This document shows positions 34,806-47,278 of a stretch of 64,000 nt of DNA, in pieces. The stretch is taken from contig CALVKK010000001.1 in the NCBI GenBank assembly GCA_944332645.1, forward strand, positions 30,059 through 94,058, in the 5' to 3' direction. Made by a program: the position numbers and the translations under genes. The stretch comes from an uncultured Bacilli bacterium (GTDB lineage: Bacteria > Bacillota_I > Bacilli_A > RF39 > UBA660). The notes beneath the pieces are model-generated. The model had not been told where the DNA came from and made no database searches. It saw only the letters and a program-made list of their open reading frames with translations. Numbering within the stretch: position 1 is the first letter of the stretch; each line of letters begins with the position of its first letter.

Positions 34806-35222
34806 CTACAATTTAACTCTTTTTAAATAACTATCTTTTATTAATAATTTTCCTTTTTTACCTCTATCGCTACAATGCTCTCTTTCAAACGCAGTCAATA
34901 GGTCGTTTATTCTTCTTAAATTTTCTAGATCTAAATAACCTTTTACATTTTCATCTATCATTTCACTTGTTATAGCAAGAAATATTTCGTAATCTTTAGC
35001 TTCTATTAAATGTAGATAATCGTGTGATGTATCTTGTCTTAATATCGCACCGTTCCAAAATAGATATCCCTCTCCTATTCCATATTCTTTGCTATTTCTT
35101 CTTGGCACTATAAGATGATGGTAGCTCAAGCTATTCTTTTTATCCACAGTAAAGCCCATAAAATCAAAACCTAGTTTCATTATCTTAAATTGGTTTATCA
35201 TTATCTTTGTTATTTCTCGCAT
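34806..35222 (-). CDS. HNH-like endonuclease (packaging-associated, tentative)
   Basis: YHHL...WNGAIL...HDYLH is an HH-N-H spacing. Lies upstream of terS, as in HNH-dependent cos phages. Confidence 0.4.
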   Translation of the reverse strand: MREITKIMINQFKIMKLGFDFMGFTVDKKNSLSYHHLIVPRRNSKEYGIGEGYLFWNGAILRQDTSHDYLHLIEAKDYEIFLAITSEMIDENVKGYLDLENLRRINDLLTAFEREHCSDRGKKGKLLIKDSYLKRVKL

Positions 35223-35247
35223 ATAATCACCACATTTTGGTTCTCGA

Positions 35248-35322
35248 GGCTAGAATCGAACTAGCACATTATAGGTTCAAAGCCTATTGCCTTACCGTTT
35301 GGCTACTCGAGAATATAAAAAA
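35248..35322 (-). tRNA. tRNA-Gln (anticodon UUG) with encoded CCA
   Basis: Hand-folded. Acceptor TCTCGAG/CTCGAGA (7 bp), D stem GCC/GGC, anticodon arm ATAGG-CTTTGAA-CCTAT, T arm GCTAG-TTCGATT-CTAGC, discriminator A + CCA. Confidence 0.8.
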
Positions 35323-35444
35323 GAAAAGAGGTAAACTTTTCTTAACAACCCACCTTACATACATTCGTACATGGAGTGGGCAAATATAAAAGGGGTTTTA
35401 CAATGAGATGTCTTTTAAACTATCTCACAGTATCATTATATAAC

Positions 35445-35478
35445 AAGTTTTGTGCAATTTTGTGCAATCTTTATTTTT
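35445..35478 (-). promoter_or_regulatory. Putative activator-dependent late promoter: tandem 10-bp repeats (minus strand ATTGCACAAA x2) 8 nt upstream of a TATAAT
   Basis: Repeats at 35459..35468 and 35469..35478. The -10 is at 35445..35450. No -35-like hexamer at the correct spacing. Confidence 0.4.
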
Positions 35479-35494
35479 TAACACAAAAAAAGAG

Positions 35495-35525
35495 CCTATC
35501 AATAACGATAGGCTCAACAAAGGTC
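35495..35525 (-). terminator. Strong intrinsic terminator ending the DUF2828 / tRNA-like RNA transcript
   Basis: On the minus strand, GAGCCUAUC-GUUAUU-GAUAGGCUC is followed by U7. Confidence 0.75.
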
Positions 35526-35528
35526 TTA

Positions 35529-35596
35529 TTTCTATCTTAACTGGATAGCGTCCTTAACAAACTTTTTATATTGCTGTATGACCTTTTATTTTTTAC
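35529..35596 (-). ncRNA. Stem-loop domain closed by AAAGGUC/GACCUUU, with an inner CUAUC-CAGUUAA-GAUAG hairpin
   Basis: Complementarity read directly. No family assignment. Confidence 0.3.
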
Positions 35597-35619
35597 TAAC
35601 AAATTTAACAAAGCCATTT

Positions 35620-35723
35620 TTTTATTTAGGTTGGAATCGAACCAACTACATTTTCGTTACTAGCGAAACGCTCTACCAAATGAGCTACTAATTCTTTTTG
35701 CAGTAATGGCTTTTAATATATGA
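35620..35723 (-). ncRNA. tRNA-like RNA (anticodon-position AGU) enclosed by a 9-bp outer helix; alternatively an atypical tRNA-Thr(AGU)
   Basis: D arm GCTC-ATTTGGTA-GAGC, anticodon arm TTTCG-CTAGTAA-CGAAA, T arm GTTGG-TTCGATT-CCAAC. The acceptor GAATTAG/CTAAATA has 2 mismatches. No CCA. The flanks AAAGCCATT and AATGGCTTT are complementary. Confidence 0.55.
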
Positions 35724-35757
35724 TATAACAATTCCCTATATTTCCATTATATCATAT

Positions 35758-37146
35758 TTACCCTTTAAAATCAATCTTTTTCTTGTAATTTTCAATAATT
35801 CTATCGATATATTCGTCCATATTCATAATGCCAGGTAATAGTAATAAAGATTGTAAATCGTAACCTGACATATAGATATTTCCATATTCGTCGTATTCTG
35901 GACTTGTACGATTTCTATTATTAAAATTCCACCAAATTATTTTTGTTTGTGCTCCGGCTTCTTTAAATATTTTCATAGTTTCTTCTTTAGATTGACGAGA
36001 ACCATAATCAAACTCCATATCAGACATAACAATTAAATAATCAGGAAATTTTTTCAATCCTTTCAAAATTTTCATTACAGCACCAAAATCTGTATTAGAG
36101 CAATCACCCGTATACATAGATTGATATTGTTCTTTTAATGTCTTACCTCTTATTGTCATCAATTTAGGATGTGAACTAAACGAAATTACTTGATTAGGTG
36201 CGTAAGTAGAATGCGTAGCAAGTGCATGAGCGATACTTGTTGCTTTAGAACATAAACTATTTGAATTATATAATCCACCCATTGAACCAGATGTATCTAA
36301 AACACAAATACAATTCAATGATAAACCACTTGTTTCTTGCTCTACAATTTTTTTACCAATAATATCAGCTACTTCTTCTATATTATCAGATTTCTTTACG
36401 GTTTTGTAAGCATCATGAACATTAGCTGTAGAAGTATTTACTTTTGCTTTATCTTCTTTTACTGCAATAATATATTCGCTAAATCTTTCTTTTAAATCGC
36501 TTCTAGTTGAAAATGTATGCAAATATTTTGTCATTGCTAAACTTGGAACTTGTTCAAAATTTATTTTTTCTACCAATGGATGAATGTATTTATTATTTTT
36601 GAAAATATCATCAAGAGGTGTGCCATCTTCTTTTAATTCAGCGTAAGACAATTTATATTCAACAGTTGAATCGGTTTTAATTAATGCTCTATATTCCTTT
36701 TCAGATATATTCCACATTTCACATAATGCTTTTGCTATTTTTTTATCTTTACCAGTTAGTCTTGGCATCCACTTTTTAGCTAATTCAATATGTTCTTGAT
36801 CTGTATTGCCAGATAGTACCGCCAACAAATAAGATAAATTTTTATCAGTTGGGATATGCCATAAATCATCATACCTACCAGCTGTAATAACATTATTAGG
36901 TTCTACTTCAGATAATTGCATCAATTTTCTTCCTAAATCGCGTCTACCTTGACCAAATCTAGGATCTCTCATATACATTGAAAATATTTTTTCTTTCTCA
37001 CTTTTTCCAATTCTCACTTGATCTAAATTTTTAGAGAAGAAATCAGCCATAAATAACAAGTCAATTAAATTATTACCGGTACTATTATATGCCTTATCCC
37101 CATTTTCAGTTAATTTTTCATTAAACATTTTTTCTATTTTATTCAT
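35758..37146 (-). CDS. DUF2828-type protein: helical N-terminal domain + C-terminal vWA domain with MIDAS (Ro60-like bipartite architecture)
   Basis: The N-terminal signature LTENGDKAYNSTGNNLIDLLF matches recalled DUF2828/UCP015417 proteins. The vWA MIDAS is VLDTSGSMGG, with downstream NTDF and SDMEF. Confidence 0.75.
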   Translation of the reverse strand: MNKIEKMFNEKLTENGDKAYNSTGNNLIDLLFMADFFSKNLDQVRIGKSEKEKIFSMYMRDPRFGQGRRDLGRKLMQLSEVEPNNVITAGRYDDLWHIPTDKNLSYLLAVLSGNTDQEHIELAKKWMPRLTGKDKKIAKALCEMWNISEKEYRALIKTDSTVEYKLSYAELKEDGTPLDDIFKNNKYIHPLVEKINFEQVPSLAMTKYLHTFSTRSDLKERFSEYIIAVKEDKAKVNTSTANVHDAYKTVKKSDNIEEVADIIGKKIVEQETSGLSLNCICVLDTSGSMGGLYNSNSLCSKATSIAHALATHSTYAPNQVISFSSHPKLMTIRGKTLKEQYQSMYTGDCSNTDFGAVMKILKGLKKFPDYLIVMSDMEFDYGSRQSKEETMKIFKEAGAQTKIIWWNFNNRNRTSPEYDEYGNIYMSGYDLQSLLLLPGIMNMDEYIDRIIENYKKKIDFKG

Positions 37147-37567
37147 AATCTTCCTCCTTAATCATTTTTCTAATATCATTAATAAAATCGTATATTCTTC
37201 GTTTACTATAATTTGTTTTTATTGCAATATATCTTACTTTCATATTTTTAACATATTTTAATAGATATATTTTATCTAACATGTTTGAACTATTATTTAA
37301 TTCTATTTCTTTTAATTTCAATCTATACTCTAAAACATCTCTTAAATTTCGTCTTACATTTATCTCTTTGTCGATTTCTTCCATCTTTATAGTGTAATTT
37401 AAGAATTTATTACTCGAGCTACCTTTTAGTAACTCATTCTCAAAATTAGCCGATTTTGGTACTACTGAATACAATAATTGCGACTTTTTAGCTAATGCTT
37501 TTTCAAATTCTTTTTTAGCTTCTTTATATTCTTCATTTAGTTTATAGTGTTCAATAAATAGTTCCAT
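37139..37567 (-). CDS. Putative late-gene transcriptional activator
   Basis: Exact copy of 974..1402 (+36165). Confidence 0.45.
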   Translation of the reverse strand: MELFIEHYKLNEEYKEAKKEFEKALAKKSQLLYSVVPKSANFENELLKGSSSNKFLNYTIKMEEIDKEINVRRNLRDVLEYRLKLKEIELNNSSNMLDKIYLLKYVKNMKVRYIAIKTNYSKRRIYDFINDIRKMIKEEDYE

Positions 37568-37579
37568 ACTACCACCTCT

Positions 37580-38200
37580 TTATTCTCTATCGAAATGTTC
37601 TCTTAATTTGCCGTTTTTCATTCTTACATATTTTGAAATGATGTTATTATGATTTACTATAAATCCCTCGACATTTCTTTTTACTTTGTTACAGTATTTT
37701 TCATAAATACTATCTAAATATTCTTTATTTGGTAAAACATTTAATTCAGCTACATTAGGTACTATACCAATAAAATTAGGAATTGTTTGACTAGCAAATG
37801 GGTATATAAACAAATCGTGGTCATAAATTAAATTATATAAATTAAAATCATCATCTATATTGGCTTTAGCAAACATATACCATTTTTTATCGAACTCATC
37901 GATAGTATACTTTAATTGCCCCATTCCAAGCCATTCTCCACAAATAGCACTATTCTCGTGTAATTCGTTTTGTAGTACTTCTTTATTATCTAGCAACCAT
38001 TGATACAATCCTTTATATAATATTTCTTTTTGTTCTTCAATTTCTTCAATACAAATAATATTATTTCTTTGTGCAATGTATAATTTCTCATTTTTCTTAA
38101 AAAAGACTAAATTACTACCATCTAATTTTTCAGTAACATAAATCTTATCTCCACTACATTTTACTCTTTTTGTTTTAGGATAAATTCCTTTTTTTATCAT
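37580..38200 (-). CDS. RNA ligase-like nucleotidyltransferase
   Basis: Exact copy of 1415..2035. Confidence 0.6.
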   Translation of the reverse strand: MIKKGIYPKTKRVKCSGDKIYVTEKLDGSNLVFFKKNEKLYIAQRNNIICIEEIEEQKEILYKGLYQWLLDNKEVLQNELHENSAICGEWLGMGQLKYTIDEFDKKWYMFAKANIDDDFNLYNLIYDHDLFIYPFASQTIPNFIGIVPNVAELNVLPNKEYLDSIYEKYCNKVKRNVEGFIVNHNNIISKYVRMKNGKLREHFDRE

Positions 38201-38589
38201 TCTTTCACCTCATAAGTCATACTTTCAAATTGTTCTTTCGTTACTATTGATTTAATAGGATAATGTTTTATATAAGGATTTATAGTTTTATATCCATGTT
38301 CCATTATTAATGTAAAATTAAAAATATCATCACCATTTGGGTTATATATTGCAGTTACTTTATATCCATTAACATAATCTCCTTCTTCAATTAAATCGAT
38401 TATGTTATAACTTGCTTTTAATACATCTTTTTTTTCTATATAATTAATTTCTTCTTTATCTATAAAAAATCCATCAATTTCAGGAAAAACGCCAATTCCT
38501 ACATCAACACTATCTTCGTGAAATTCTCTATAAAGTTTACAAATACCATTGTTTTTAGTTCTAACATACATTCCTTCTTCTAATTTCAT
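38197..38589 (-). CDS. Hypothetical phage protein
   Basis: Exact copy of 2032..2424. Confidence 0.6.
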   Translation of the reverse strand: MKLEEGMYVRTKNNGICKLYREFHEDSVDVGIGVFPEIDGFFIDKEEINYIEKKDVLKASYNIIDLIEEGDYVNGYKVTAIYNPNGDDIFNFTLIMEHGYKTINPYIKHYPIKSIVTKEQFESMTYEVKE

Positions 38590-38846
38590 ATTTTCCTCCC
38601 AAAAACATCATTAATGCCACAGTCTTTCACTTGGTCTTGTATATCTAATATTTGATTAAGTAATTTGCAATATTCTACTGGTTTATTATCGCTAGTGTAT
38701 ATTATTTTAAAGTATCTGCATGGTTTAGCGCACACGCCATATTTCTTAATTTTTTTAAATTTATGATGACAGTACTGTGTGTTTTTAGGTATAAACAAGC
38801 TAGCCCATTTTTCTTTAATCTTCTTCATCTTCCACCTCAATATCAT
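38586..38846 (-). CDS. Hypothetical Cys-rich phage protein
   Basis: Exact copy of 2421..2681. Confidence 0.5.
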   Translation of the reverse strand: MILRWKMKKIKEKWASLFIPKNTQYCHHKFKKIKKYGVCAKPCRYFKIIYTSDNKPVEYCKLLNQILDIQDQVKDCGINDVFGRKI

Positions 38847-38896
38847 TACTCTCGTAAACTTGTCCGAATTTACTTTTGCATTCGTTACATATCATT

Positions 38897-39253
38897 TTAA
38901 GCATCTACTTTCTGTAAATTACTTATTATTCCGTTAATTAATTCGGCTAATTTATCGCCACATTCATTATTCATTCTTAATTTTTCTTGAATATAACCAC
39001 CTAATTTAATACTATCGGTCGAAAAACCATAACTCGTATGATCAATAATACTAACAAACAAATAGTTTGATTTGATACCTCTTTGAAATTGTCCGTATTT
39101 TATATCTAACCCTAATTTAAAAACTATATCTAAATGTGTTGATTTCTCATCAGTCCAACCTATTCCTACTGTACCTCCTGTTTTTATAATATTTGCTATG
39201 GTTTTATATGTATTTTCGCCATTTATTATTTCACCATAATTATCTACATTCAT
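38897..39253 (-). CDS. Hypothetical phage protein
   Basis: Exact copy of 2732..3088. Confidence 0.55.
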   Translation of the reverse strand: MNVDNYGEIINGENTYKTIANIIKTGGTVGIGWTDEKSTHLDIVFKLGLDIKYGQFQRGIKSNYLFVSIIDHTSYGFSTDSIKLGGYIQEKLRMNNECGDKLAELINGIISNLQKVDA

Positions 39254-39269
39254 TATTTATCACTCCTAA

Positions 39270-39506
39270 TCATTTTTTAAAACTATAAGTATTACATCCC
39301 ATTCCACCTGAAGCAAAAATATAATTTCCGTTTAATATTTTTCCTATGCAATCATCACATAAATTTAATTTTTCATTACAAAGATATGGTGGGCATTTTT
39401 TACCTTCATTCTGTTCAGTTGTAAATATGACTTGTATGTCGACTTCTTCATTTTTAGTCTCTTTCTTACATACATCACAATAAATTTTTGTTATTATTTG
39501 ATTCAT
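39270..39506 (-). CDS. Hypothetical zinc-ribbon protein
   Basis: Exact copy of 3105..3341. Confidence 0.55.
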   Translation of the reverse strand: MNQIITKIYCDVCKKETKNEEVDIQVIFTTEQNEGKKCPPYLCNEKLNLCDDCIGKILNGNYIFASGGMGCNTYSFKK

Positions 39507-39790
39507 TCTTTACCTCCTGTTATTTCTTTATATTTTGATAAAATCTTTTCCATTATAGCGATCCAATTTTTAATAACAGGGTTCATCATCATATAATCGC
39601 CATTAATTTGAGAATATGTATTTTTTATAAAGCTTATTTCACTTTCTAACCATTGTATAAATTCTTTTTGTTGATTTTTTAATTTTTGATTTTCTTTTTT
39701 TAGTTCATCTATTTTAGGCTGTAATTCTAGTAAGACATTTGCTCTAGCTATTGCTATATCTAATTCTTCATCACTTGCACCACTTATCAT
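39503..39790 (-). CDS. Hypothetical coiled-coil phage protein
   Basis: Exact copy of 3338..3625. Confidence 0.5.
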   Translation of the reverse strand: MISGASDEELDIAIARANVLLELQPKIDELKKENQKLKNQQKEFIQWLESEISFIKNTYSQINGDYMMMNPVIKNWIAIMEKILSKYKEITGGKE

Positions 39791-39804
39791 TTATTCCACC
39801 CCTT

Positions 39805-40068
39805 TTAATATGTTACTTTAATACCTTTTGCTTCTATATTGTCGTGATTTAAATTAATAATTCCTTTGTTTGCTAATTTATATATCAATGAAAATGACTC
39901 AAGTATTTCATCGTCTAAAATAAATTTTGTTTCTGGTCCCTGATATTTGATAAATATATTATTTATATCAATCAAGATTGCCTTTATCGTATCTTCTTTT
40001 GAATATGCTTTATAATAACGGTCGTTTTTTAGCATATTATTAATTTCTGCTTTTATTTGTTCTAACAT
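39805..40068 (-). CDS. Hypothetical phage protein
   Basis: Exact copy of 3640..3903. Confidence 0.5.
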   Translation of the reverse strand: MLEQIKAEINNMLKNDRYYKAYSKEDTIKAILIDINNIFIKYQGPETKFILDDEILESFSLIYKLANKGIINLNHDNIEAKGIKVTY

Positions 40069-40841
40069 TATTCCACCTCATTTAAAACTTTTTGCTTTTC
40101 TAATTTATCGAAATCTGTAAATATACTTGCTTGTCCCCACGCAGTAATTCCGTTTATTCTTTTATTTGCTATTTCATAATATTCTTTATTTATTTCCATA
40201 CCTATAAATCTTCTTCCCGTTTCTTGACAAGCCACACAAGTTGTACCACTTCCACAAAAACAATCTAATACTATATCATTTGGTTGCGTTGTATGTAATA
40301 TATGTCTTTTAACAAGGTTAAGTGGTTTTATTGTTGGATGATTATAAAGAATTTTGTCATTTTGATTTAAAGAACTTACATACCATTTACTTTTTAGTTC
40401 ATAACCATTATTTAATTTTGTTCCTCTATTAAAATACAAACAATATTCTATATCACTTAACCAATTACCATTACACATAGGAACAGGATTAGTTTTATTC
40501 CATGTTAATATTTGATATGTAGAATTAGTGTTTTTGTTAAACCAATCTAATATTGAAAATATTTGTTCCTTGCTACACCATATAAAACAATTTACATTTT
40601 TTAGGATTCTTACAAATTCATCAAAAATTTTATAATCAATACCATCGTAAATGTCTGCTTTTTTTAATTCTTTTTTCATTTTTTGAACCTGTAAAGCAAT
40701 TCTCGAAGTTCCTGTTCCACCTTGTTGAAAAAGATAAGGAATATCTACATAAATGCAATCAACACTTTTATCAGGTATATTTTTAATCATCTCATAGCAA
40801 TCACAATTGATTATTTTGTTTATCATATCTTCAAATTTCAT
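40068..40841 (-). CDS. DNA methyltransferase (N6A/N4C, beta class)
   Basis: Exact copy of 3903..4676. Confidence 0.85.
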   Translation of the reverse strand: MKFEDMINKIINCDCYEMIKNIPDKSVDCIYVDIPYLFQQGGTGTSRIALQVQKMKKELKKADIYDGIDYKIFDEFVRILKNVNCFIWCSKEQIFSILDWFNKNTNSTYQILTWNKTNPVPMCNGNWLSDIEYCLYFNRGTKLNNGYELKSKWYVSSLNQNDKILYNHPTIKPLNLVKRHILHTTQPNDIVLDCFCGSGTTCVACQETGRRFIGMEINKEYYEIANKRINGITAWGQASIFTDFDKLEKQKVLNEVE

Positions 40842-40843
40842 TT

Positions 40844-41029
40844 TTAATCTACCTCTACTAAATATCTTCTTTTTTTACCTGTACCTCTTTTTTGGTAAGT
40901 TGGTGTATTATAAAAATCTAATGTCCTCTTTTTTACACCCATTTTTTTAGCAATTTCTTCTTTTGTACCAAATGCTAATTCAATATCGCCTTTATATAGT
41001 GAATAATAAACTTTTTTCATATCTTCCAA
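40844..41029 (-). CDS. Small hypothetical protein, possible HTH
   Basis: Exact copy of 4679..4864. Confidence 0.45.
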   Translation of the reverse strand: MEDMKKVYYSLYKGDIELAFGTKEEIAKKMGVKKRTLDFYNTPTYQKRGTGKKRRYLVEVD

Positions 41030-41202
41030 ATTCCCAACTCCTTTAACAGCTTAATTTTTTCATTTTTCGTTAAATTCCAATTATTCCAAATGGTACTTTG
41101 CAATTCAATTAATGCGCATTTATCGTTCAATAGTTTTGCTTTAAACACAGCTCTTTTGTAGCTTGGCAGAAAATATTTTTTAAACGATTCTAGATATTTC
41201 AT
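41017..41202 (-). CDS. Small hypothetical phage protein
   Basis: Exact copy of 4852..5037. Confidence 0.4.
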   Translation of the reverse strand: MKYLESFKKYFLPSYKRAVFKAKLLNDKCALIELQSTIWNNWNLTKNEKIKLLKELGIWKI

Positions 41203-41537
41203 AATTCTTTCAGCTCACAATCTTGATATATATACTCAAACATCTTCTTTTTCAATAAATAATCTTTTGTTTTATATCCTTTTGTATCTTCAATTATCAT
41301 TTTTTTTAATTTATTATCATAGTACATAAAATCTGCTATATATTCTATCTTTCGATATGATTTATTATTTTTCTTGAATTTTGGCTGTAGTTCGAATTTT
41401 GGTTGTAATGTTAAATCAGTTATTTCATTTGCTTTCAATAGTAAATCTAATTGATGAAATCTTTCATGTTCTTTCTTACTGTCAAAAAATCGGTTAGCTT
41501 TATCACAATAAACTTTTTCATTACGATACTTATTCAT
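41199..41537 (-). CDS. DUF1064-family putative resolvase/nuclease
   Basis: Exact copy of 5034..5372. Confidence 0.7.
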   Translation of the reverse strand: MNKYRNEKVYCDKANRFFDSKKEHERFHQLDLLLKANEITDLTLQPKFELQPKFKKNNKSYRKIEYIADFMYYDNKLKKMIIEDTKGYKTKDYLLKKKMFEYIYQDCELKEL

Positions 41538-41552
41538 CCAGTTACCCCATTT

Positions 41553-41972
41553 CTACCACTTAGTAAGTTCATTATTTTTTATAGCATTTGTTATTTCAAA
41601 TACTTCTTCATTTGTATAATCTTTTTTTAAACCTACCAAAATTGATGGCGGTGTTGGTATTTCTTTGTTAATAGGTCGCCAAATATGCAAACAATATGGA
41701 TGATTATTAACATAATCTTTTTTTGCTGGATGTAATTGCATACATACCTCATCATCTTTCCAAAATAAATCTTTCATTGAACACATTTGTTCCCACGATG
41801 GACATCTAGTTGGCATCGATACCGAACAATGTTCAAATTCAGCTCCCCAACTCATTATAAAATTTAAATGACATCTACTTTTTTTATCGTAAAAAGTCCC
41901 ACCAAAACCATCTCTACCTTCTTTTTTTATTTCTAAATATTTATTCTTTTTGATTTCTTCTAAACTTTTCAT
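41553..41972 (-). CDS. Conserved hypothetical phage protein
   Basis: Exact copy of 5388..5807. Confidence 0.55.
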   Translation of the reverse strand: MKSLEEIKKNKYLEIKKEGRDGFGGTFYDKKSRCHLNFIMSWGAEFEHCSVSMPTRCPSWEQMCSMKDLFWKDDEVCMQLHPAKKDYVNNHPYCLHIWRPINKEIPTPPSILVGLKKDYTNEEVFEITNAIKNNELTKW

Positions 41973-42322
41973 TTAGTACTCCATTTCTTATAAACTAAAT
42001 TCGACTTATCCCAACTTGGATAAAGACTCTTTAAATAATTTTCCATTATTGATAACATTTCTTTTCGTAGACTTTGATTACCATTGTCCAGCAAATGATG
42101 ATGATATCTACACCCCTCAACCCCGTTTTCTTCAATTCCTAAACCCATTTTTGACTTGGGTACAAAGTGCATAATATCGTGAATTATAAAATCCATTTTA
42201 TTAGGATTAAATTCTTCACAATGATAACCAATTCTACAAAAAAGACACGAATAATTATCTCTTTGTTGTATGGTCCTTATTGTGTCTTTATTAAATTGTA
42301 ATAATTTTGTATAATTTGGCAT
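41969..42322 (-). CDS. Putative HNH/zinc-binding nuclease-like protein
   Basis: Exact copy of 5804..6157. Confidence 0.35.
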   Translation of the reverse strand: MPNYTKLLQFNKDTIRTIQQRDNYSCLFCRIGYHCEEFNPNKMDFIIHDIMHFVPKSKMGLGIEENGVEGCRYHHHLLDNGNQSLRKEMLSIMENYLKSLYPSWDKSNLVYKKWSTK

Positions 42323-42790
42323 TTAAGCCACCCCCTGACTTTTAACATCTTCCTCTAATTCTTCTAACTCTTCCGGACTTAATGTTTCGATTCCTTGTTG
42401 TTTGCATTCTTCACAAAGTCCTTTCAATAAAATTGCAAATTCAGCTGTATTTAATTCGTGGCTAGGAGTGTACACGTGGTACACATAAAATTCCTTGCCA
42501 TTTTTTAATATCTTTGATTTTTTTTCGTAATATTCGATACCTCTAATATTACTTTCATTAGGTACTAAAATTTCATATCTAGGACTATAAGATTTAAGCA
42601 TCTCAAAATGTAATTCTTCTATTCCTATTTTTGTCTTTAATGATAATTCTCCTAATAATTTCCAATACTTTTTATTTTGTTTTTTATTTCTTTTTTCTTT
42701 GTATTCTTTTATTTCAAATAATTTATTTTTGTCTTGGTCATACAACCATTGAATTATTTTTAAGACATTTCCTATCATTAATCTAACCAA
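42323..42790 (-). CDS. NinB/Orf-like protein (tentative)
   Basis: Exact copy of 6158..6625. Confidence 0.35.
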   Translation of the reverse strand: MVRLMIGNVLKIIQWLYDQDKNKLFEIKEYKEKRNKKQNKKYWKLLGELSLKTKIGIEELHFEMLKSYSPRYEILVPNESNIRGIEYYEKKSKILKNGKEFYVYHVYTPSHELNTAEFAILLKGLCEECKQQGIETLSPEELEELEEDVKSQGVA

Positions 42791-43185
42791 TTATCATCAA
42801 TAGACACACTTTCACCAAAATCAGCGAACACATCAGTATTGTCTTGTTTTTCTTCTTTAGTTTCTTCTTTTTTCTTGCTATTTAAGAACATTACTCTTTC
42901 AGCAACGACTAATGTTTTGTATCTATTTTCGCCGTCTTTAGTTGTAAATTTTTCAGTTTGTACTCTACCTTCTATAGCTACTAAACTACCTTTATCTAAA
43001 TATTGGCAAATATTTTCAGCTTGCTTTCTCCACACTCTAATTTCAATAAAATCAGCCTCTTTTTTTCCGTCTTCACGAGGTGGTCTATCTACTGCTAAAT
43101 TGAAACTCGTTACTGCTATGTTTGAACTTGTATATTTTAATTCAGGTTTGGCTGTTAACCGACCTATAAGTATTGCTTTATTCAT
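42778..43185 (-). CDS. ssb: Single-stranded DNA-binding protein
   Basis: Exact copy of 6613..7020. Confidence 0.85.
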   Translation of the reverse strand: MNKAILIGRLTAKPELKYTSSNIAVTSFNLAVDRPPREDGKKEADFIEIRVWRKQAENICQYLDKGSLVAIEGRVQTEKFTTKDGENRYKTLVVAERVMFLNSKKKEETKEEKQDNTDVFADFGESVSIDDNWLD

Positions 43186-43495
43186 TACTTTTCTCCTTAC
43201 TATTTTTACTTTCAAAATAATTAATCGTACTTTTTATATATGATAGTGAATTATTTAATTTTTCTATTGCGTAATCGGAATATATCCCTTTATGTTCTAC
43301 ATAAACTTCTAATACTGCTGATATGCCTATTAAACTATCAACTAAATCTTTTAAAAATGCACTATCCCTAGAACCAGTAGAATAATATTCATCATAAATT
43401 TTCATATAATAATGTTCTATTTTGTTAAGTTCTCTATTTAATGAATCTTGAGTATTTTGTCTAAAGAAATCTCTATCTATATTGCTTCCAAACAT
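43178..43495 (-). CDS. Hypothetical phage protein
   Basis: Exact copy of 7013..7330. Confidence 0.5.
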   Translation of the reverse strand: MFGSNIDRDFFRQNTQDSLNRELNKIEHYYMKIYDEYYSTGSRDSAFLKDLVDSLIGISAVLEVYVEHKGIYSDYAIEKLNNSLSYIKSTINYFESKNSKEKSNE

Positions 43496-44196
43496 TCTCT
43501 AAACTCTACCTCCAATTCTTCTCTTTCTTCATCATTATGAAGTTGATTTAAATACCTATTTGCTTCTTCTAATATTTCCATATATTTAACATTATTTTTT
43601 ATAGCATTATTAACCGTATCATATCTTTCTTTGTCTTCCGCTGCTTTTGTATATACTAAATACAAATCACTTAATACTTGATATTTTCTACCTTGAAGAT
43701 AATTAGATAAGTAGGTATCTGTTTTTTTGTTGTTTGAGACATAATTATCTATATATACATCTCTTATTTCTTTATTACTAACACCATTATCATCTAAAAA
43801 ATCTTCTGCTATTTTTGTTAGCATATCTTCTTCTTCACTTTCGGCTGCTTGTATTAATTCATATCCTTTTTCTTTTCTTATGTAATATTTTTCACAAGAA
43901 CATATTAAATCAAATATTGCACCGTTAATTTGTTTCTTTAGAATTTTTATATTGCTTTGATTAATATGATAAGTTATAAAATTATAATTGCTATAATCAT
44001 TATTTTTTATATTAATTTCCAATACAATACTGTTGCTTTGTGTATTAATTTCGTATAGTTGTAACGAAAATATAAAATCTTTATATACAAACAAATTCCA
44101 TTTTTTATTCCAAAGTTCTCTATCTAAATAATTTTTTATTATAAAACTATAATCAATTTCATATTGCTTAATAATTAAGTTATTCATTACGTTCAC
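43477..44196 (-). CDS. Hypothetical phage protein
   Basis: Exact copy of 7312..8031. Confidence 0.55.
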   Translation of the reverse strand: MNVMNNLIIKQYEIDYSFIIKNYLDRELWNKKWNLFVYKDFIFSLQLYEINTQSNSIVLEINIKNNDYSNYNFITYHINQSNIKILKKQINGAIFDLICSCEKYYIRKEKGYELIQAAESEEEDMLTKIAEDFLDDNGVSNKEIRDVYIDNYVSNNKKTDTYLSNYLQGRKYQVLSDLYLVYTKAAEDKERYDTVNNAIKNNVKYMEILEEANRYLNQLHNDEEREELEVEFRECLEAI

Positions 44197-44200
44197 CCTT

Positions 44201-44776
44201 TTAATATTTACTTTCCCAATTTTCTTGATAAATCTTTAACAAGTCATATTTTTCTAGCCAATTCATAAATTTATAAATTTCTTCTTTTAAATCCATTTTT
44301 AATTCTTCACGATAATATTCTTCTTTAAAAATTCGTAATTGTTTTTTATCTTCTTCCCAGTCGTTTACCATATCTTTTTTATCAAAATTATTACAAATTA
44401 CATATTGCATTTTATATGCCTCTGGTACTAATTCCATATAAACTGCTGTTTGATAACTTCCGTAAAATTTACCGACATCATAATTGTTAGTGTGCTTATA
44501 ATCAGTAATAACTCCAGCTTTTAAACAATCAATTTTTCCGTAGACAATGAAATTATCAATATTTTTATATACTTTAACTTGGTAACATCCATTTTTTGTT
44601 TCAGGATAATGAGCAACCATATACTCCTCAAACTCATTACCCTTAACAAATTTACTTTTATCTTCGACTTCTTCTTTTTTTAAAGTTTTAATAAAATCTT
44701 CCAAAGTGCCATATTGATTTTCGACACAATATTTCCAACTATTCAGCAATGTCGGTGTTATTAGATACTTTTTCAT
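44201..44776 (-). CDS. PD-(D/E)XK nuclease
   Basis: Exact copy of 8036..8611. Confidence 0.5.
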   Translation of the reverse strand: MKKYLITPTLLNSWKYCVENQYGTLEDFIKTLKKEEVEDKSKFVKGNEFEEYMVAHYPETKNGCYQVKVYKNIDNFIVYGKIDCLKAGVITDYKHTNNYDVGKFYGSYQTAVYMELVPEAYKMQYVICNNFDKKDMVNDWEEDKKQLRIFKEEYYREELKMDLKEEIYKFMNWLEKYDLLKIYQENWESKY

Positions 44777-45692
44777 ATTCTTTCTTCTCACTATTCCATT
44801 GATAACCTAATTCTGCTACCTTTTCTTTAAATTTGTGTTTCAACTCTTTTTCACTTGTTAAAATATGATTAGTTTCTTTAATTAATTTTGTCATACTTGT
44901 TAAATCTTCTTTGGTTTCCATTTTTTCAATTTGTGGTACTATTTCATTCATTAATTTTTCATATTCTTTCTTTTGTTCTTCAAAGAATACAGCTTCTTTT
45001 TTGATGTTGTTATTAGCTAATTGAAACAATTTTGTTAAAAAGTCATTTGGTTTTGTTCCGTCTAATTCAGGTATTTTCATTACACCTTTAATTCCAAAAC
45101 TTGCTTTAGCAAAATATCTTTCACAATTATCGAATCCGATAGTTTTCTTTTTACCGATAATTTCCATAAAGCCACCAATTTCAACATTTTGCCATACTGT
45201 GTTTTTTGTAGATCCTTCTACTAAAATTCTTAACTTTGTTTGTTCCTCATCTTTTTCTTCAACTGCGTGAAAAACAATAACAATGTTTTTTCTTAAATTG
45301 TAGTAGCAATTATCCATAAATCTTGAAAATTCTCTTGCCACAGCTCCATAACCTTGTAATGATAAACTACCGTCTTTTTTAGCATTTTTAACATCCTGTT
45401 TAATAACATAATTCTTCATTAATTCTAATAATTTTCCACCAGTATCAATTACTAAAGTTTCATAATCACTTAAATCGCCTTTTAAATCTTCGATTAATTC
45501 TTCATAACTATTTGGTTGAATAAAGTCTTTTCTTGCACTAGCCATAACTCTATTGATACCTAAATCTACATCTACCAATAATGGTTTTGGTGCAGATAAA
45601 GCTAAAGTCGTTTTACCTATTCCTGGATACCCAGCTATTAACATTCTTATTTTTTGATTTTCATTAATTAATTCATTTGGTTTTTTTATCAT
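44739..45692 (-). CDS. AAA_24/Sak4-like ATPase
   Basis: Exact copy of 8574..9527. Confidence 0.7.
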   Translation of the reverse strand: MIKKPNELINENQKIRMLIAGYPGIGKTTLALSAPKPLLVDVDLGINRVMASARKDFIQPNSYEELIEDLKGDLSDYETLVIDTGGKLLELMKNYVIKQDVKNAKKDGSLSLQGYGAVAREFSRFMDNCYYNLRKNIVIVFHAVEEKDEEQTKLRILVEGSTKNTVWQNVEIGGFMEIIGKKKTIGFDNCERYFAKASFGIKGVMKIPELDGTKPNDFLTKLFQLANNNIKKEAVFFEEQKKEYEKLMNEIVPQIEKMETKEDLTSMTKLIKETNHILTSEKELKHKFKEKVAELGYQWNSEKKEYEKVSNNTDIAE

Positions 45693-46009
45693 AAATTCAT
45701 TCCTCCTATTTTACTTTTCCATTCCATAATTTTTGTCGTTCTAAACATTTGATTTGCACGATGTTTAGTATTGTTAATTGTTTCTTCTACCTCTTCTCGT
45801 GTTGTACAGATATAAAATCCACCACTAATACCCGATATACTTCCAATCAATTTTGGATACTGCTTGTCCTCTCTGATATTTTGAATGATCTTTCGCATTG
45901 TCTTATCACTATTCACATTGAATATTTGTCGTAAGTCTTTGTTTTTGATTAAATTAGCTTTTCCTAAATGATTTTTACAAAGGTATTCATAAACTAATTT
46001 TTCACGCAT
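45689..46009 (-). CDS. Hypothetical protein, possible winged-helix
   Basis: Exact copy of 9524..9844. Confidence 0.45.
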   Translation of the reverse strand: MREKLVYEYLCKNHLGKANLIKNKDLRQIFNVNSDKTMRKIIQNIREDKQYPKLIGSISGISGGFYICTTREEVEETINNTKHRANQMFRTTKIMEWKSKIGGMNL

Positions 46010-46179
46010 GGTATTAACCTCGCTTTTTTGTGTTTGAATCGCTCTTGTAGTTCTTTTGCTCTTTTAGGTGTAAATACTTTAGCCTCGTTTATATCTCTAA
46101 CAATGTGGTACATTGGAATACTAGGCTTAGCCCACTTTAGATACACTTTTTCGTTTGAAACTTCTATTTCTACAATCAT
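45994..46179 (-). CDS. Small hypothetical phage protein
   Basis: Exact copy of 9829..10014. Confidence 0.4.
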   Translation of the reverse strand: MIVEIEVSNEKVYLKWAKPSIPMYHIVRDINEAKVFTPKRAKELQERFKHKKARLIPCVKN

Positions 46180-46847
46180 TTTTCACCCCTTAATTCTTTT
46201 TCAAAAGCCTCTAATTCTTCATCAGTTAGTAAATCATCATCGACATTTTTATTGAACCAGTCAGGAACTTGTTCTATTGGCTTTTCGTTTTTTAAACGGT
46301 CAAAAATTATTCCTTTGTAATTATTTGCCATGCACTCATCGATTAAGTTAATAATTTTTTCTTCGCCATATTTTTTTGTGTTGTTTTCAATTTGCGTTAG
46401 TAAAGACTTTAATCCTGTTTCAGTATAATGTTCTTTTCGCTCTTTTTTGTACATGAGCCAATCTTCAATCTTTCCCCTTAACAATCCCCTATCTTTTAAA
46501 AACTCTAAATTAGAAACTAAAAACTTAAAACTTAAAACACTTGTTTTGTTTTCTTCCGGTTCCTCATTCGGTTTCTTTCCGGTTTGCTTTCCGGTTTTTC
46601 TTTGGTTTGCCTTTCGGTTTTCTTCCGGTTCATTTTTTTTACTTCTTTTTGAATTGTTTTTTGATAAATTTAACTGTGATTTCAAAGTGTTAAAGACTGC
46701 TTGATTGTGTCCTGTTAATATAGGTTCAATATCTTTAAATACATAATCAGTAATAGCTATTAATAAAATACTTTTATCTTCTATTGGTAATGTATCGATT
46801 AAGTTATAATAGTCATAATAAAATGTAAAACTATTTACTTTATTCAT
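46176..46847 (-). CDS. Putative replication initiator / replisome organiser (contains iterons at 46553..46631)
   Basis: Exact copy of 10011..10682. Confidence 0.5.
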   Translation of the reverse strand: MNKVNSFTFYYDYYNLIDTLPIEDKSILLIAITDYVFKDIEPILTGHNQAVFNTLKSQLNLSKNNSKRSKKNEPEENRKANQRKTGKQTGKKPNEEPEENKTSVLSFKFLVSNLEFLKDRGLLRGKIEDWLMYKKERKEHYTETGLKSLLTQIENNTKKYGEEKIINLIDECMANNYKGIIFDRLKNEKPIEQVPDWFNKNVDDDLLTDEELEAFEKELRGEK

Positions 46848-46850
46848 TCC

Positions 46851-47000
46851 TTAACACCTATCCTTTAGTTCTTTTTTAAAATCGTTTATTATGTCTTCAA
46901 TTTGACATAATCTAATTTTTAAGATATACTTTAGTTGTAAATTTTTATTTACAACTTGATTGGAGCACCCCCGTGACCAATCTTTTTTTTGTACAGTCAT
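46851..47000 (-). CDS. Small hypothetical protein
   Basis: Exact copy of 10686..10835. Confidence 0.35.
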   Translation of the reverse strand: MTVQKKDWSRGCSNQVVNKNLQLKYILKIRLCQIEDIINDFKKELKDRC

Positions 47001-47017
47001 TTTTACATCACCCCTTT

Positions 47018-47251
47018 CTATAAATTCACTAAACAATAATCTCGATCATTATTTCGACTGCATTGTTCTAAAGCATTGTTCTGTAATAAATAGCCTAAAT
47101 AGAACATACCTACTAACAATGCACCAACCACAACCATACCGATTATCATTCTGTGTTCTTTTTTCTTCTTTTCTTTTAAAAATTGTTTTCTCATTTTAAT
47201 TTGATTTTCTTTTAATACTTCGTTTAATGTTTTTCCCTCTTTATTTTTCAT
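47018..47251 (-). CDS. Small membrane protein
   Basis: Exact copy of 10853..11086. Confidence 0.5.
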   Translation of the reverse strand: MKNKEGKTLNEVLKENQIKMRKQFLKEKKKKEHRMIIGMVVVGALLVGMFYLGYLLQNNALEQCSRNNDRDYCLVNL

Positions 47252-47278
47252 ATAGCTTGTCCTTTCTTTTTTAGAAAA

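What the first reader, a model, noticed from the sequence alone, without database searches (positions are those of the whole stretch)
35495..38200. Phage cassette: RNA ligase + DUF2828 (helical+vWA, Ro60-like architecture) protein co-transcribed with a tRNA-like structured RNA; candidate Ro/Y-RNA-like or RNA-repair module
Seen in sequence: the minus-strand order is RNA ligase-like NTase (37580..38200, KLDGSN), late-regulator-like gene (37139..37567) and DUF2828/vWA gene (35758..37146, with TENGDKAYNSTGNNLIDLLF and a DTSGS MIDAS). A 104-nt tRNA-like RNA in a closing helix (35620..35723) starts 34 nt later. A second closed stem-loop domain (35529..35596) and a strong terminator (35495..35525) follow. 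No ORF is present from 35724 to the terminator. Established: Ro60/Rsr is a helical TROVE ring fused to a vWA/MIDAS domain. Bacterial rsr loci encode adjacent Y RNAs (YrlA) with tRNA-like modules and often an RNA ligase (RtcB). DUF2828 has no assigned function. Inference: this phage carries an analogous protein-plus-RNA pair with a ligase, possibly for RNA quality control or repair of tRNAs cut by host anticodon-nuclease defences. I know of no characterised phage DUF2828 + tRNA-like RNA system.
Basis: partly seen in the sequence, partly recalled or inferred. Interest (0 to 1): 0.85.

Follow-up and report, generated by a model that had tools for sequence, protein, structure and literature searches.

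The report
Phage Ro-like protein with tRNA-mimic RNAs
A prophage gene for a Ro60-like RNA-binding protein (DUF2828) is followed by two small structured RNAs, one shaped like a tRNA, that belong to a widespread and apparently undescribed family of phage RNAs found next to this gene in very different phages, which most likely form a Y-RNA-like particle with the protein.

Summary
On the minus strand lie an RNA-ligase-like gene (PF09414), an unassignable 142-aa ORF, a DUF2828+DUF7788 gene with an intact MIDAS, two closed structured RNAs and a strong terminator.

New here: both RNAs share one signature. A covarying closing helix is followed on the 5' side by AC(A/U)GCAA and on the 3' side by a G (here CUUUG). 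This signature occurs 198 times on the gene strand in 77 related loci, 0 times on the opposite strand and once in shuffles. 197 of the 198 lie just downstream of the DUF2828 gene, usually in tandem arrays. It also sits next to DUF2828 genes in all eight distant lineages examined and in coliphage Bas63. No Rfam family matches it.

The inserts mimic tRNAs or anticodon arms, but lack a 7-bp acceptor stem and CCA.

The protein is Ro60-like in its vWA domain and overall fold. A TROVE N-terminal domain was not demonstrated. The RNA ligase linkage is not conserved.

Verdict: a Y-RNA-like RNP system, a new variant of a known kind. Protein-RNA binding and function remain inferred.

The parts
37580..38200 (-). 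RNA-ligase-like nucleotidyltransferase, 206 aa, NTase domain only, motif I KLDGSN
   Evidence: PF09414 E 1.4e-12. PHROG 548 'RNA ligase' E 1.9e-14. Weak matches to T4 Rnl2 in the PDB (E 0.2) and to the DRB0094 family. A homologue sits next to DUF2828 in only 1 of 69 related loci.
37139..37567 (-). 142-aa ORF of unknown function, overlapping the DUF2828 start by 8 nt
   Evidence: No hit in Pfam, PHROGs or NCBIfam. Among the related loci, close copies only in L087 (97%) and on L122, a contig carrying the same DUF2828 protein; a 34% match in L106.
35758..37146 (-). DUF2828+DUF7788 protein, 462 aa: N-terminal beta-hairpin, helical repeats, and a Ro60-type vWA domain with an intact MIDAS (DTSGS...T352...D376)
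   Evidence: Pfam. PHROG 850 'RNA-binding protein' E 1e-50. AF2 model pLDDT 84.7. Foldseek top 13 PDB hits are all Ro60/TROVE. hhalign to Ro60 covers the vWA only, E 2e-10. 27% identical to Bas63 gp130, E 5e-32.
35746..35774 (-). Promoter-like site TTGATT-N17-TATAAT with an upstream TG. The -35 hexamer overlaps the last codons of the DUF2828 gene.
   Evidence: A site at the same position (-35 hexamer 11 to 23 nt before the end of the stop codon) is the best match in 35 of the 60 related loci whose result was listed.
35609..35713 (-). Small RNA 1. Closing helix 35713-35705 / 35618-35610. Core ACUGCAA at 35704-35698. tRNA-like module at 35694-35622 in standard arm order, with anticodon-like loop CUAGUAA. 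Closing G at 35609.
   Evidence: Covariance model R1 gives 100.5 bits. Covariation of all five helices in 57 homologues. No 7-bp acceptor stem and no CCA. The loop differs (CUAGGAA) in a relative whose protein is 94% identical.
35518..35586 (-). Small RNA 2. Closing helix 35586-35580 / 35525-35519. Core ACAGCAA at 35577-35571. Anticodon-arm-like hairpin CUAUC-CAGUUAA-GAUAG at 35548-35532. Closing G at 35518.
   Evidence: It carries the same signature as RNA 1. It belongs to the short class, whose hairpins often carry exact tRNA anticodon loops.
35485..35515 (-). Intrinsic terminator: 10-bp stem with 5 G-C pairs, followed by T7
   Evidence: (2 found versus 0.6 expected in the region).

Best explanation
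The 462-aa DUF2828 protein is a divergent Ro60-like RNA-binding protein. The two small RNAs encoded immediately downstream are its Y-RNA-like partners.

Each RNA has two modules:
- a constant module: a closing helix, AC(A/U)GCAA just inside its 5' strand, and a G after its 3' strand. I infer that this is the protein-binding site.
- a variable module that imitates a whole tRNA (RNA 1) or just an anticodon arm (RNA 2).

The RNAs are probably made from a conserved promoter that overlaps the end of the gene, and they end at the terminator.

I infer that the particle presents tRNA or anticodon-loop mimics to a host factor that recognises tRNA. Candidates are an anticodon nuclease or another tRNA-directed or RNA-directed defence, or an exoribonuclease. 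The effect would be to sequester or redirect that factor during infection.

Shown: the gene, the RNA structures, their conservation, and their co-location with DUF2828 across phyla.

Inferred: physical binding, which host factor is targeted, and the anti-defence role.

The neighbouring RNA ligase is an accessory of this particular phage, not a core part of the system.
For: Protein:
- Ro60/TROVE structures are the top 13 PDB matches, over 440-570 alignment columns (E 5e-8 to 9e-5). Proteins that are vWA only come next, at about 200 columns.
- The same ordering is seen in BFVD.
- The vWA domain is homologous to the Ro60 vWA, and Ro60 is the only PDB sequence hit.
- The MIDAS is intact.

RNA signature:
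- 198 elements on the gene strand, 0 on the opposite strand and 1 in shuffles.
- 197 of 198 lie downstream of the stop codon, and 58 of 59 loci have at least one.
- The closing helix covaries.
- In 50 elements from distant phages and further viral contigs, ACAGCAA and the closing G are invariant.

Co-location in distant lineages:
- The signature lies next to DUF2828 in Staphylococcus SEP9, Listeria LP-083-2, Bacillus MrDarsey, mycobacteriophage Faith1, Sinorhizobium phiM12, Campylobacter NCTC12673, a Felix-O1-like phage, Lak megaphage and Treponema MAGs.
- In the whole 87-kb Bas63 genome, the only two convincing elements lie 0.5 and 1.0 kb downstream of gp130.
- Neighbouring genes differ between these lineages. 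Within the close family the window's own flanking genes are not conserved either.

Y-RNA likeness:
- Relatives give YrlA model hits of 28-48 bits, and phiM12 gives 35 bits.
- The modular build parallels YrlA/YrlB.

Not real tRNAs:
- The acceptor-like stem is only 4 bp and 80% paired, and there is no CCA.
- Anticodon-like loops are diverse and change between close relatives.
- The true tRNA-Gln nearby has a 7-bp acceptor stem and an encoded CCA.

Anticodon mimicry:
- 53% of 7-nt loops have U at position 2 and a purine at position 6, against 15% in shuffles.
- The commonest loops equal the Pro, Ile, Lys, Ser, Asn and Phe anticodon loops.

Precedent:
- Bas63 gp130 counters the Ppl defence (PMC11482910).
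- phiLo Ro60 with its Yrl RNAs binds host PNPase (PMC12135203).
Against: - No binding data exist for any DUF2828 protein and these RNAs.
- The N-terminal domain could not be shown to be TROVE-like on its own, so the binding mode may differ from Ro60.
- Bas63 gp130 expressed alone, without the phage RNAs, rescued T7 on a ppl host. At least that activity does not need phage-encoded RNAs, although host RNAs could substitute.
- Elements were found with a search that required pairing, so the 100% pairing of the closing helix is partly by construction. The strand, position and shuffle controls carry the weight.
- A database-wide test of the reverse association (motif to gene) was inconclusive.
- The host target is a guess.
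Confidence: 0.62

Rival explanations
1. The RNA ligase, the DUF2828 protein and the tRNA-like RNA form one RNA-repair cassette that reseals tRNAs cut by host anticodon nucleases, with the Ro-like RNP acting as the repair platform.
For: - The ligase-like gene lies 434 nt upstream on the same strand.
- Unrelated ligase families occur near DUF2828 elsewhere: a Pnkp-Rnl1 fusion in L123 and L101 and RtcB in Listeria LP-083-2.
- LeBron encodes an RNA ligase and a PNK in the same genome, and Bas63 has a PNK gene.
- Bacterial rsr-yrlA loci sit next to rtcBA (PMC7790460, listed).
Against: - The window ligase has a homologue in only 1 of 69 related loci with at least 1.5 kb of upstream sequence. It is absent even from L087, the 94%-identical relative.
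- Only one related locus (L101) matched the Pnkp-Rnl1 fusion; other ligase families were not searched for.
- The ligase is a bare NTase domain of unknown specificity.
Confidence: 0.15
2. The RNAs are independent phage small RNAs (tRNA or anticodon-arm decoys, or regulators). Their conserved flanks are processing or stability signals recognised by a host RNase or another factor, not by the DUF2828 protein. The gene and the RNAs are merely co-inherited as neighbours, or act in the same pathway without forming an RNP.
For: - Tandem arrays have regular spacers of about 23-25 nt, which suits processing of a polycistronic precursor.
- The array has its own conserved promoter.
- gp130 works without the phage RNAs in T7.
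- The N-terminal domain has not been shown to be TROVE.
Against: Co-location with DUF2828 persists across Firmicutes, Actinobacteria, Proteobacteria, Campylobacterota, Spirochaete and Bacteroidota phages, although gene order and neighbours change. Host RNases differ across these phyla, yet ACAGCAA is invariant. This is the pattern expected for a phage-encoded reader.
Confidence: 0.17
3. RNA 1 is simply a functional tRNA-Thr(AGU) gene with a processing stem, and RNA 2 is part of its precursor or terminator region.
For: ARAGORN and the Rfam tRNA model both call it (54.1 bits, above the gathering score of 29). Phages often carry tRNAs at this genome position, and a real tRNA-Gln follows.
Against: - Acceptor pairs 1-72 and 3-70 are mismatched.
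- Across 57 homologues only 4 acceptor pairs are modelled, and they are 80% paired.
- There is no CCA, whereas the window's tRNA-Gln encodes one, as do tRNA-like sequences in related loci.
- The anticodon is AGU here but AGG in a relative whose protein is 94% identical. 19 different triplets are seen overall, including ones bacteria do not use, and 8 of 57 loops are not 7 nt.
- The same closing signature encloses inserts with no tRNA shape at all.
Confidence: 0.04
4. The conserved flanking sequences are transcription signals: CTTGTT as a -35 hexamer and TATAAAG as a -10 hexamer of the next unit. They would not be part of an RNA structure.
For: Spacers of 23-25 nt place TTGTTN and TATAAA 15-17 nt apart (my reading).
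Against: - The supposed -10 lacks the conserved T at its last position.
- Its A's pair with the U's of CUU, and the adjacent helix positions covary.
- The first element of each array has the same 5' flank although it follows a genuine TTGACT-N17-TATAAT promoter.
- The signature is kept in GC-rich mycobacteriophage and rhizobiophage, which have different flanks.
Confidence: 0.02

Closest known systems
Ro60 (Rsr) with Y RNAs, especially bacterial and mycobacteriophage YrlA/YrlB (Chen et al. 2014, PMC4201824; Rfam RF02553)
   Same: - A protein built of helical repeats plus a vWA/MIDAS domain, encoded next to small RNAs.
- The RNAs have a closing stem carrying a conserved motif, plus a variable module that mimics tRNA.
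- A tRNA-like RNA and a shorter RNA occur together.
- Relatives of this locus give sub-threshold YrlA hits with the permuted order T arm, hairpin, D arm.
   Different: - The protein is DUF2828, not TROVE. Only the vWA domain aligns by profile.
- The RNA motif is AC(A/U)GCAA with a closing G, not the GNCGAAN0-1G / CGAA motif.
- The window RNA keeps standard tRNA arm order, with the protein-side helix extending from the acceptor end.
- The RNAs come in tandem arrays of up to 5.
- The window region gives no YrlA hit at E 10.
Thermus phage phiLo Ro60 with Yrl1/Yrl2 (PMC12135203)
   Same: A phage-encoded Ro60-like protein with two adjacent Y-like RNAs. It binds host PNPase and attenuates it, and was proposed as an anti-defence strategy. 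phiLo Ro60 is among the top structural matches (9l5y, TM 0.47-0.49).
   Different: phiLo Ro60 is a canonical doughnut-shaped TROVE protein. Its RNAs lie upstream and carry CGAA, and no tRNA-like module was reported. It shows no detectable sequence similarity to the window protein.
Bas63 (Felixounavirus) gp130, a counter of the Ppl defence (PhageMaP preprint, PMC11482910)
   Same: - A true family member: 27% identity, E 5e-32, full length.
- The authors described it as structurally Ro60-like.
- It sits directly upstream of a tRNA array, and the authors speculated that Y RNAs hide among the tRNAs.
- I find two elements with the same signature 0.5 and 1.0 kb downstream of it.
   Different: The host is E. 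coli and the phage is a lytic myovirus. The RNA partners were not identified in that work. gp130 alone sufficed against Ppl in T7. No ligase is adjacent.
Phage tRNA repair and tRNA-based counter-defence (T4 Pnk + Rnl1 against PrrC; phage tRNAs that escape anticodon nucleases). From my own knowledge and PMC13148394.
   Same: The theme is tRNA-centred conflict. RNA ligase or PNK genes occur in the same genomes or neighbourhoods. Anticodon loops are the feature on display.
   Different: Those systems repair or replace real tRNAs. Here the RNAs cannot be charged, and they are tied to a Ro-like protein.

Membership tests
Ro60 / TROVE protein family | N-terminal TROVE domain (PF05731): HEAT-like helical ring | tested here: inconclusive
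   No TROVE hit in Pfam at E<=0.1. hhalign against 7 Ro60 sequences aligns no N-terminal columns. The isolated N-domain model (pLDDT 74.9) has no significant Foldseek hit, and phiLo Ro60 ranks 5th at E 4.9. However, the full-length model aligns to Ro60 over 440-570 columns with TM up to 0.51, ahead of all vWA-only proteins. It also has an N-terminal beta-hairpin, as Xenopus Ro60 does according to PMC12135203.
Ro60 / TROVE protein family | C-terminal Ro60-type vWA domain with MIDAS | tested here: met
   hhalign probability 96.9%, E 2e-10, residues 260-444 against Ro60 350-530. PF25045 vWA_Ro60 E 3.6e-5, below the cut-off. Ro60 9nen is the only PDB sequence hit. The DxSxS...T...D residues are invariant.
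Ro60 / TROVE protein family | Binds Y RNA through a conserved stem, and binds misfolded RNA ends in the central hole | not testable with these tools
   Only co-location with conserved structured RNAs could be shown.
DUF2828 (PF11443) + DUF7788 (PF25043); PHROG 850 | Profile matches above the curated cut-offs over both domains | tested here: met
   PF25043 56.6 bits (cut-off 27.1). PF11443 41 bits (cut-off 29). PHROG 850 E 1e-50 over residues 5-438.
YrlA Y RNA (Rfam RF02553) | Score at or above the gathering threshold (69 bits) | tested here: not met
   No YrlA match in 35100..35900 at E<=10 or anywhere in the window at E<=1. Relatives reach 28.7-48.3 bits.
YrlA Y RNA (Rfam RF02553) | Permuted tRNA-like module: T arm, closed acceptor-like hairpin, D arm | tested here: not met
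   Window RNA 1 has the standard order D arm, anticodon-like arm, T arm. The permuted form exists in relatives and in Faith1, MrDarsey, Bas63 and Treponema loci.
YrlA Y RNA (Rfam RF02553) | Ro-binding stem with the GNCGAAN0-1G / CGAA motif | tested here: not met
   The conserved motif here is AC(A/U)GCAA plus a closing G, against the motif described in PMC4201824 and PMC12135203.
YrlA Y RNA (Rfam RF02553) | Encoded next to the gene of its protein partner | tested here: met
   RNA 1 starts 44 nt after the stop codon. 197 of 198 family members lie downstream of the gene.
tRNA (RF00005) | Cloverleaf with T and D loop signatures | tested here: met
   54.1 bits against a gathering score of 29. The T stem is 99.6% paired and the D stem 93.8% paired in 57 homologues.
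tRNA (RF00005) | 7-bp acceptor stem and a usable 3' end (CCA or a site for it) | tested here: not met
   Two of 7 acceptor pairs are mismatched. Only 4 pairs are conserved, at 80% pairing. The 3' side runs into an A-rich linker and the closing helix. The true tRNA-Gln has an encoded CCA.
tRNA (RF00005) | Anticodon conserved among orthologues | tested here: not met
   AGU here, against AGG in the relative whose protein is 94% identical. 19 triplets occur among 49 seven-nt loops, and 8 loops have 6, 8 or 9 nt.
ATP-dependent RNA ligase (PF09414; Rnl2 / DraRnl-like) | Nucleotidyltransferase domain with motif I KxDGxN | tested here: met
   PF09414 E 1.4e-12 over residues 19-183, with KLDGSN. There is no C-terminal domain. 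Similarity to T4 Rnl2 and DRB0094 is only weak. Activity was not tested.

The most novel reading that the evidence does not exclude
DUF2828 proteins and their AC(A/U)GCAA-closed RNAs form a pan-phage ribonucleoprotein. The scaffold displays arrays of tRNA and anticodon-stem-loop mimics (Pro, Ile, Lys, Asn, Phe and others) as decoys or adaptors. These would neutralise tRNA-targeting or RNA-targeting host immunity, such as anticodon nucleases, Ppl-type systems or PNPase-dependent pathways. Each phage would tune its RNA repertoire to the defences of its host. This would be a second, independent Y-RNA-like system alongside canonical Ro60-Y RNA. It would be present in hundreds of sequenced phages, from Felix O1 and Listeria P100-like phages to Lak megaphages.
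Probability: 0.3. Interest if true: 0.9.

Novelty: new variant of a known kind. Interest (0 to 1): 0.72.

Why it matters
DUF2828 proteins occur in 679 of about 50,700 deposited phage genomes. These include therapeutic and model phages such as Felix O1-like, Listeria P100/A511-like, Staphylococcus 6ec/SEP9, Campylobacter and mycobacteriophage cluster L phages. They also occur in giant viruses.

One member, Bas63 gp130, is an experimentally shown anti-defence gene whose mechanism is unknown.

Identifying a conserved, easily recognised RNA partner has three consequences:
- It turns a vague 'RNA-binding protein' annotation into a testable RNP model.
- It explains unannotated gaps, spurious small ORFs and odd 'tRNA' calls next to these genes.
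- It shows that tRNA and anticodon-arm mimicry on a Ro-like scaffold is widespread in phages.

It also gives a simple handle (ACAGCAA plus a closing helix) for building an Rfam family and for designing binding and knockout experiments.

Tried and rejected
1. Pseudoknot between AGCAA and the 3' UUGUU. Rejected: the tail after the closing G is not conserved in distant lineages (GUAA, GUGA, GAUA, GGUA), and a zero-length connecting loop cannot span a 7-9-bp helix.

2. Flanks acting as -35/-10 promoter boxes. Rejected; see the rival explanations.

3. Isolated N-terminal domain model plus Foldseek, to prove a TROVE fold. No significant hit. The model was built from only 22 similar sequences, so this is a weak negative.

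4. hhalign of DUF2828 against TROVE. Only the vWA domain aligns.

5. IMG/VR scan with the 14-nt half-motif TAAAG-N4-6-TACAGCAAA. Of 29 loci whose pattern site also had a closing helix, 4 had DUF2828 in the fetched stretch, against 2 of 91 without a helix. Many stretches were short or one-sided. Inconclusive.

6. Conserved RNA ligase linkage. tblastn with the window ligase and with a Pnkp-Rnl1 fusion found only isolated cases.

7. ORF142 as a late regulator. No family hit anywhere.

8. Rfam search for a named family covering these RNAs. Only tRNA, sub-threshold YrlA and noise were found.

9. Literature search for DUF2828 or a described RNA partner. Nothing was found beyond the Bas63 speculation. 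The library lacks most subscription journals, so absence is not proof.

10. My first crude classifier of insert types mislabelled RNA 1 as permuted. It was replaced by position-based classes and a covariance model.

Full report
**What is in the window**

On the minus strand, one search lists three ORFs in a row: 206 aa at 37580..38200, 142 aa at 37139..37567 and 462 aa at 35758..37146.
- The first matches PF09414 RNA_ligase (E 1.4e-12) and carries KLDGSN. It is a bare nucleotidyltransferase domain, with only weak similarity to T4 Rnl2 and the DRB0094 family.
- The second has no hit in Pfam, PHROGs or NCBIfam. 'Late regulator' is therefore unsupported.
- The third matches DUF7788 and DUF2828 above their cut-offs, and vWA_Ro60 just below its cut-off. 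It also matches PHROG 850 'RNA-binding protein' (E 1e-50).

Downstream of the third ORF:
- ARAGORN and the Rfam tRNA model find a tRNA-like element at 35622..35694 (54.1 bits). Two of its acceptor pairs are mismatched.
- This element is enclosed by a 9-bp helix, 35713-35705 paired with 35618-35610.
- A second domain, closed by AAAGGUC/GACCUUU, spans 35586..35518.
- A 10-bp terminator follows at 35515..35485.
- A separate, genuine tRNA-Gln comes after the terminator. It scores 69.5 bits and has a perfect acceptor stem and an encoded CCA.

**The protein**

- An AF2 model built from 60 homologues (pLDDT 84.7) shows an N-terminal beta-hairpin, about 17 helices and a C-terminal Rossmann-like vWA domain.
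- Foldseek against the PDB returns 13 Ro60/TROVE entries first: Xenopus and human Ro60, a 'Trove domain' entry, Thermus phage phiLo Ro60 and Deinococcus Rsr.
- These have E 5e-8 to 9e-5 and alignments of 440-570 columns (TM up to 0.51). Only after them come vWA-only proteins, at about 200 columns.
- In BFVD the best matches are other DUF2828/DUF7788 proteins, including ones from giant viruses. TROVE proteins come next.
- At sequence level Ro60 is the only PDB hit. A profile-profile comparison with seven canonical Ro60 proteins is significant only for the vWA domain (probability 96.9%, E 2e-10).
- A model of residues 1-268 alone gave no significant structural match.

So the protein has a Ro60-type vWA/MIDAS domain and a Ro60-like overall build. 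A TROVE N-terminal domain is not demonstrated.

Curators already treat the family this way. Homologues in cluster-L mycobacteriophages are annotated 'Ro-like RNA binding protein'. This is distinct from the 357 phage records that carry canonical TROVE Ro60. The DUF2828 type occurs in 679 phage records.

**The RNAs belong to a large family**

I fetched 7 IMG/VR, 79 metagenome and 27 MAG loci encoding homologues with 25-94% identity.

T-arm motifs are about 150 times more frequent downstream of the gene than upstream. Inspection showed a recurring frame:
- a helix of variable sequence;
- on the 5' side, after 1-5 nt, C(A/U)GCAA;
- on the 3' side, CUU(U) and then a G.

A scan for this frame gave:
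- 198 elements on the gene strand of 77 loci, none on the opposite strand and one in shuffled sequence;
- 197 of the 198 lie downstream of the stop codon, 156 of them within 500 nt;
- 58 of 59 loci with enough sequence have at least one, typically 2-4 in tandem.

Both window RNAs fit this frame. The helix covaries: 5 of 7 pairs have compensatory changes, giving 184 double-change cells against 52 in shuffles. The search required pairing, so the strand, position and shuffle controls are the real evidence.

A covariance model of the 'standard-order' class was built from 34 elements, including the window RNA. It scores the window RNA at 100.5 bits and finds 57 members. Across these members:
- the closing helix is 98% paired, the D stem 94%, the anticodon-like stem 100% and the T stem 99.6%;
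- the acceptor-like stem is only 4 bp and 80% paired;
- 21 of 26 pairs covary.

All 263 model hits at E<=0.01 lie on the gene strand.

**They are tRNA mimics, not tRNAs**

- No member has a 7-bp acceptor stem or CCA. True tRNAs in the same phages do.
- Anticodon-like loops carry 19 different triplets. Eight of 57 loops are not 7 nt. The window's AGU is AGG in a relative whose protein is 94% identical.
- Other members have the arms in the permuted YrlA order: T arm, closed hairpin, D arm. These give sub-threshold YrlA hits of 28-48 bits.
- About half of the elements have no T arm. Instead they carry one or two hairpins, typically a 5-bp stem with a 7-nt loop.
- Such loops have U at position 2 and a purine at position 6 in 53% of cases, against 15% in shuffles.
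- The commonest loops are exact anticodon loops of tRNA-Pro (UUUGGGA), Ile, Lys, Ser, Asn and Phe.
- Window RNA 2 carries CUAUC-CAGUUAA-GAUAG.

**The signature follows DUF2828 across phyla**

Elements with the same frame lie next to the DUF2828 gene in all eight distant lineages I examined:

| Phage or source | Elements and position |
|---|---|
| Staphylococcus SEP9 | three, directly after the gene |
| Listeria LP-083-2 | three, directly before the gene |
| Bacillus MrDarsey | five, between the tRNA array and the gene |
| Mycobacteriophage Faith1 | three, then a terminator, directly after gp55 |
| Sinorhizobium phiM12 | present |
| Campylobacter NCTC12673 | present |
| Felix-O1-like D4 | present |
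| Lak megaphage | present |

The same frame also flanks the gene in two Treponema MAG loci.

In 50 such elements (29 next to these genes, 21 from further viral contigs, only some with a DUF2828 gene in the fetched stretch), ACAGCAA and the closing G are invariant, and all 7 helix pairs covary.

In the complete 87-kb genome of Bas63, the only two convincing elements lie inside the tRNA array, 0.5 and 1.0 kb downstream of gp130. One is short and one is a permuted tRNA mimic. I confirmed that gp130 is a family member (E 5e-32).

In the 64-kb window, only RNAs 1 and 2 have the AC(A/U)GCAA core with a closing helix.

No Rfam family matches any of these elements. The neighbouring genes differ between lineages. 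Within the close family, the window's own flanking genes are not conserved either.

**Transcription**

A TTGATT-N17-TATAAT site with an upstream TG overlaps the last codons of the gene. In 69 of 76 related loci a comparable site is present. Among the 60 loci whose result was listed, the -35 hexamer overlaps the gene end in 35. The -10 hexamer ends 5-19 nt before the first element in 31 of the 69. No terminator separates the gene from the RNAs.

The RNAs are thus probably made from their own promoter and also by read-through. This is inferred, not shown.

**The ligase**

- A homologue of the window ligase is found in only 1 of 69 related loci, and not in L087, the 94%-identical relative.
- Unrelated RNA-repair enzymes occur near DUF2828 elsewhere: a kinase-phosphatase-Rnl1 fusion in L123 and L101 and RtcB in the Listeria phage.
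- LeBron and Bas63 encode PNK or ligase genes elsewhere in their genomes.

The theme recurs, but the ligase is not a core component.

**What is known**

- Bacterial and mycobacteriophage Ro60 genes have adjacent tRNA-like YrlA RNAs (PMC4201824).
- Thermus phage phiLo Ro60 binds two adjacent Y-like RNAs with a CGAA motif, and binds host PNPase (PMC12135203).
- Jumbo phages combine ROT/TROVE proteins with RNA ligases (PMC7824862).
- The PhageMaP preprint reports that Bas63 gp130 is structurally Ro60-like and counters the Ppl defence. gp130 is transferable to T7 without the Bas63 RNAs. The authors speculate that some neighbouring 'tRNAs' are Y RNAs.
- I found no description of the AC(A/U)GCAA-closed RNA family. 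The searched library is incomplete.

**Conclusion**

The most likely reading is a Y-RNA-like ribonucleoprotein. The DUF2828 protein would bind the constant closing module of the RNAs encoded beside it. The variable modules would present tRNA or anticodon-arm mimics to a host factor. This is a new variant of the Ro60-Y RNA theme, and the window is an ordinary member of it that also carries a lineage-specific ligase.

Binding, the host target and the biological role are inferences. The gp130-alone result in T7 warns that the protein has at least one activity that does not need phage RNAs.

Noticed in passing
window 1..15582 and 36166..51747: The two stretches are identical (offset 36,165 nt), so the window holds about 1.4 head-to-tail copies of a 36.2-kb phage genome. 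This is either a tandem prophage or a wrapped assembly. A truncated second copy of the cassette sits at the window start: ligase at 1415..2035, ORF142 at 974..1402, and the first 981 nt of the DUF2828 gene. The sequence diverges after 51747.
   Followed up: partly
window 35241..35312 (-): Genuine tRNA-Gln(UUG): 69.5 bits, perfect 7-bp acceptor stem, encoded CCA. It lies just after the terminator and serves as an internal contrast to the tRNA-like RNA 1.
   Followed up: yes
L120 (Listeria phage LP-083-2) 515..1066: A ROOL RNA-like match (87.4 bits, gathering score 99.1) lies about 650 nt upstream of the three DUF2828-associated RNAs. An RtcB ligase gene lies 1.3 kb downstream of the DUF2828 gene.
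   Followed up: no
L123 285..2534; L101 5392..7368: A 749-aa fusion of an AAA_33 kinase, a Metallophos phosphatase and a T4 Rnl1-type RNA ligase (a complete end-healing and sealing enzyme) lies near DUF2828 in two relatives.
   Followed up: partly
Bas63 MZ501086 82748..83022 (L256 37748..38022): The annotated small ORF bas63_0137, on the opposite strand, overlaps the permuted tRNA-like RNA at 82781..82907, so it is probably a spurious ORF call. Its neighbour bas63_0138 (82912..83022) lies just beyond the RNA. In phage D4, small 'hypothetical proteins' similarly cover the homologous RNA.
   Followed up: partly
BFVD matches of model md6dc1a1b24ff: DUF2828/DUF7788 proteins of giant eukaryotic viruses (Marseillevirus, Pithovirus, Mimivirus, CroV) are close structural matches (E 1e-17 to 1e-11). 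I did not check whether they also have partner RNAs.
   Followed up: no
window 34806..35222 (-): A 138-aa ORF between the tRNA-Gln and the small terminase recurs downstream of the RNA array in 9 related loci. It has no family hit.
   Followed up: no
L002 4696..4766; L119 6135..6195; L120 386..460: Annotation tools call tRNA-like modules, or odd tRNAs, near DUF2828 genes: Asp-ATC (ARAGORN) in L002, 'tRNA-TERM' in L119 and 'tRNA-OTHER' in L120. The L002 call is a DUF2828-associated RNA mislabelled as a tRNA. The other two were not examined.
   Followed up: partly
window 59115..59145 (-): A sub-threshold match to the L31-Firmicutes ribosomal leader (31.8 bits, gathering score 33.3). This is consistent with Firmicute host DNA flanking the prophage. 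MAGs carrying relatives are labelled Bacilli, Clostridia, Tenericutes and Erysipelotrichaceae.
   Followed up: no
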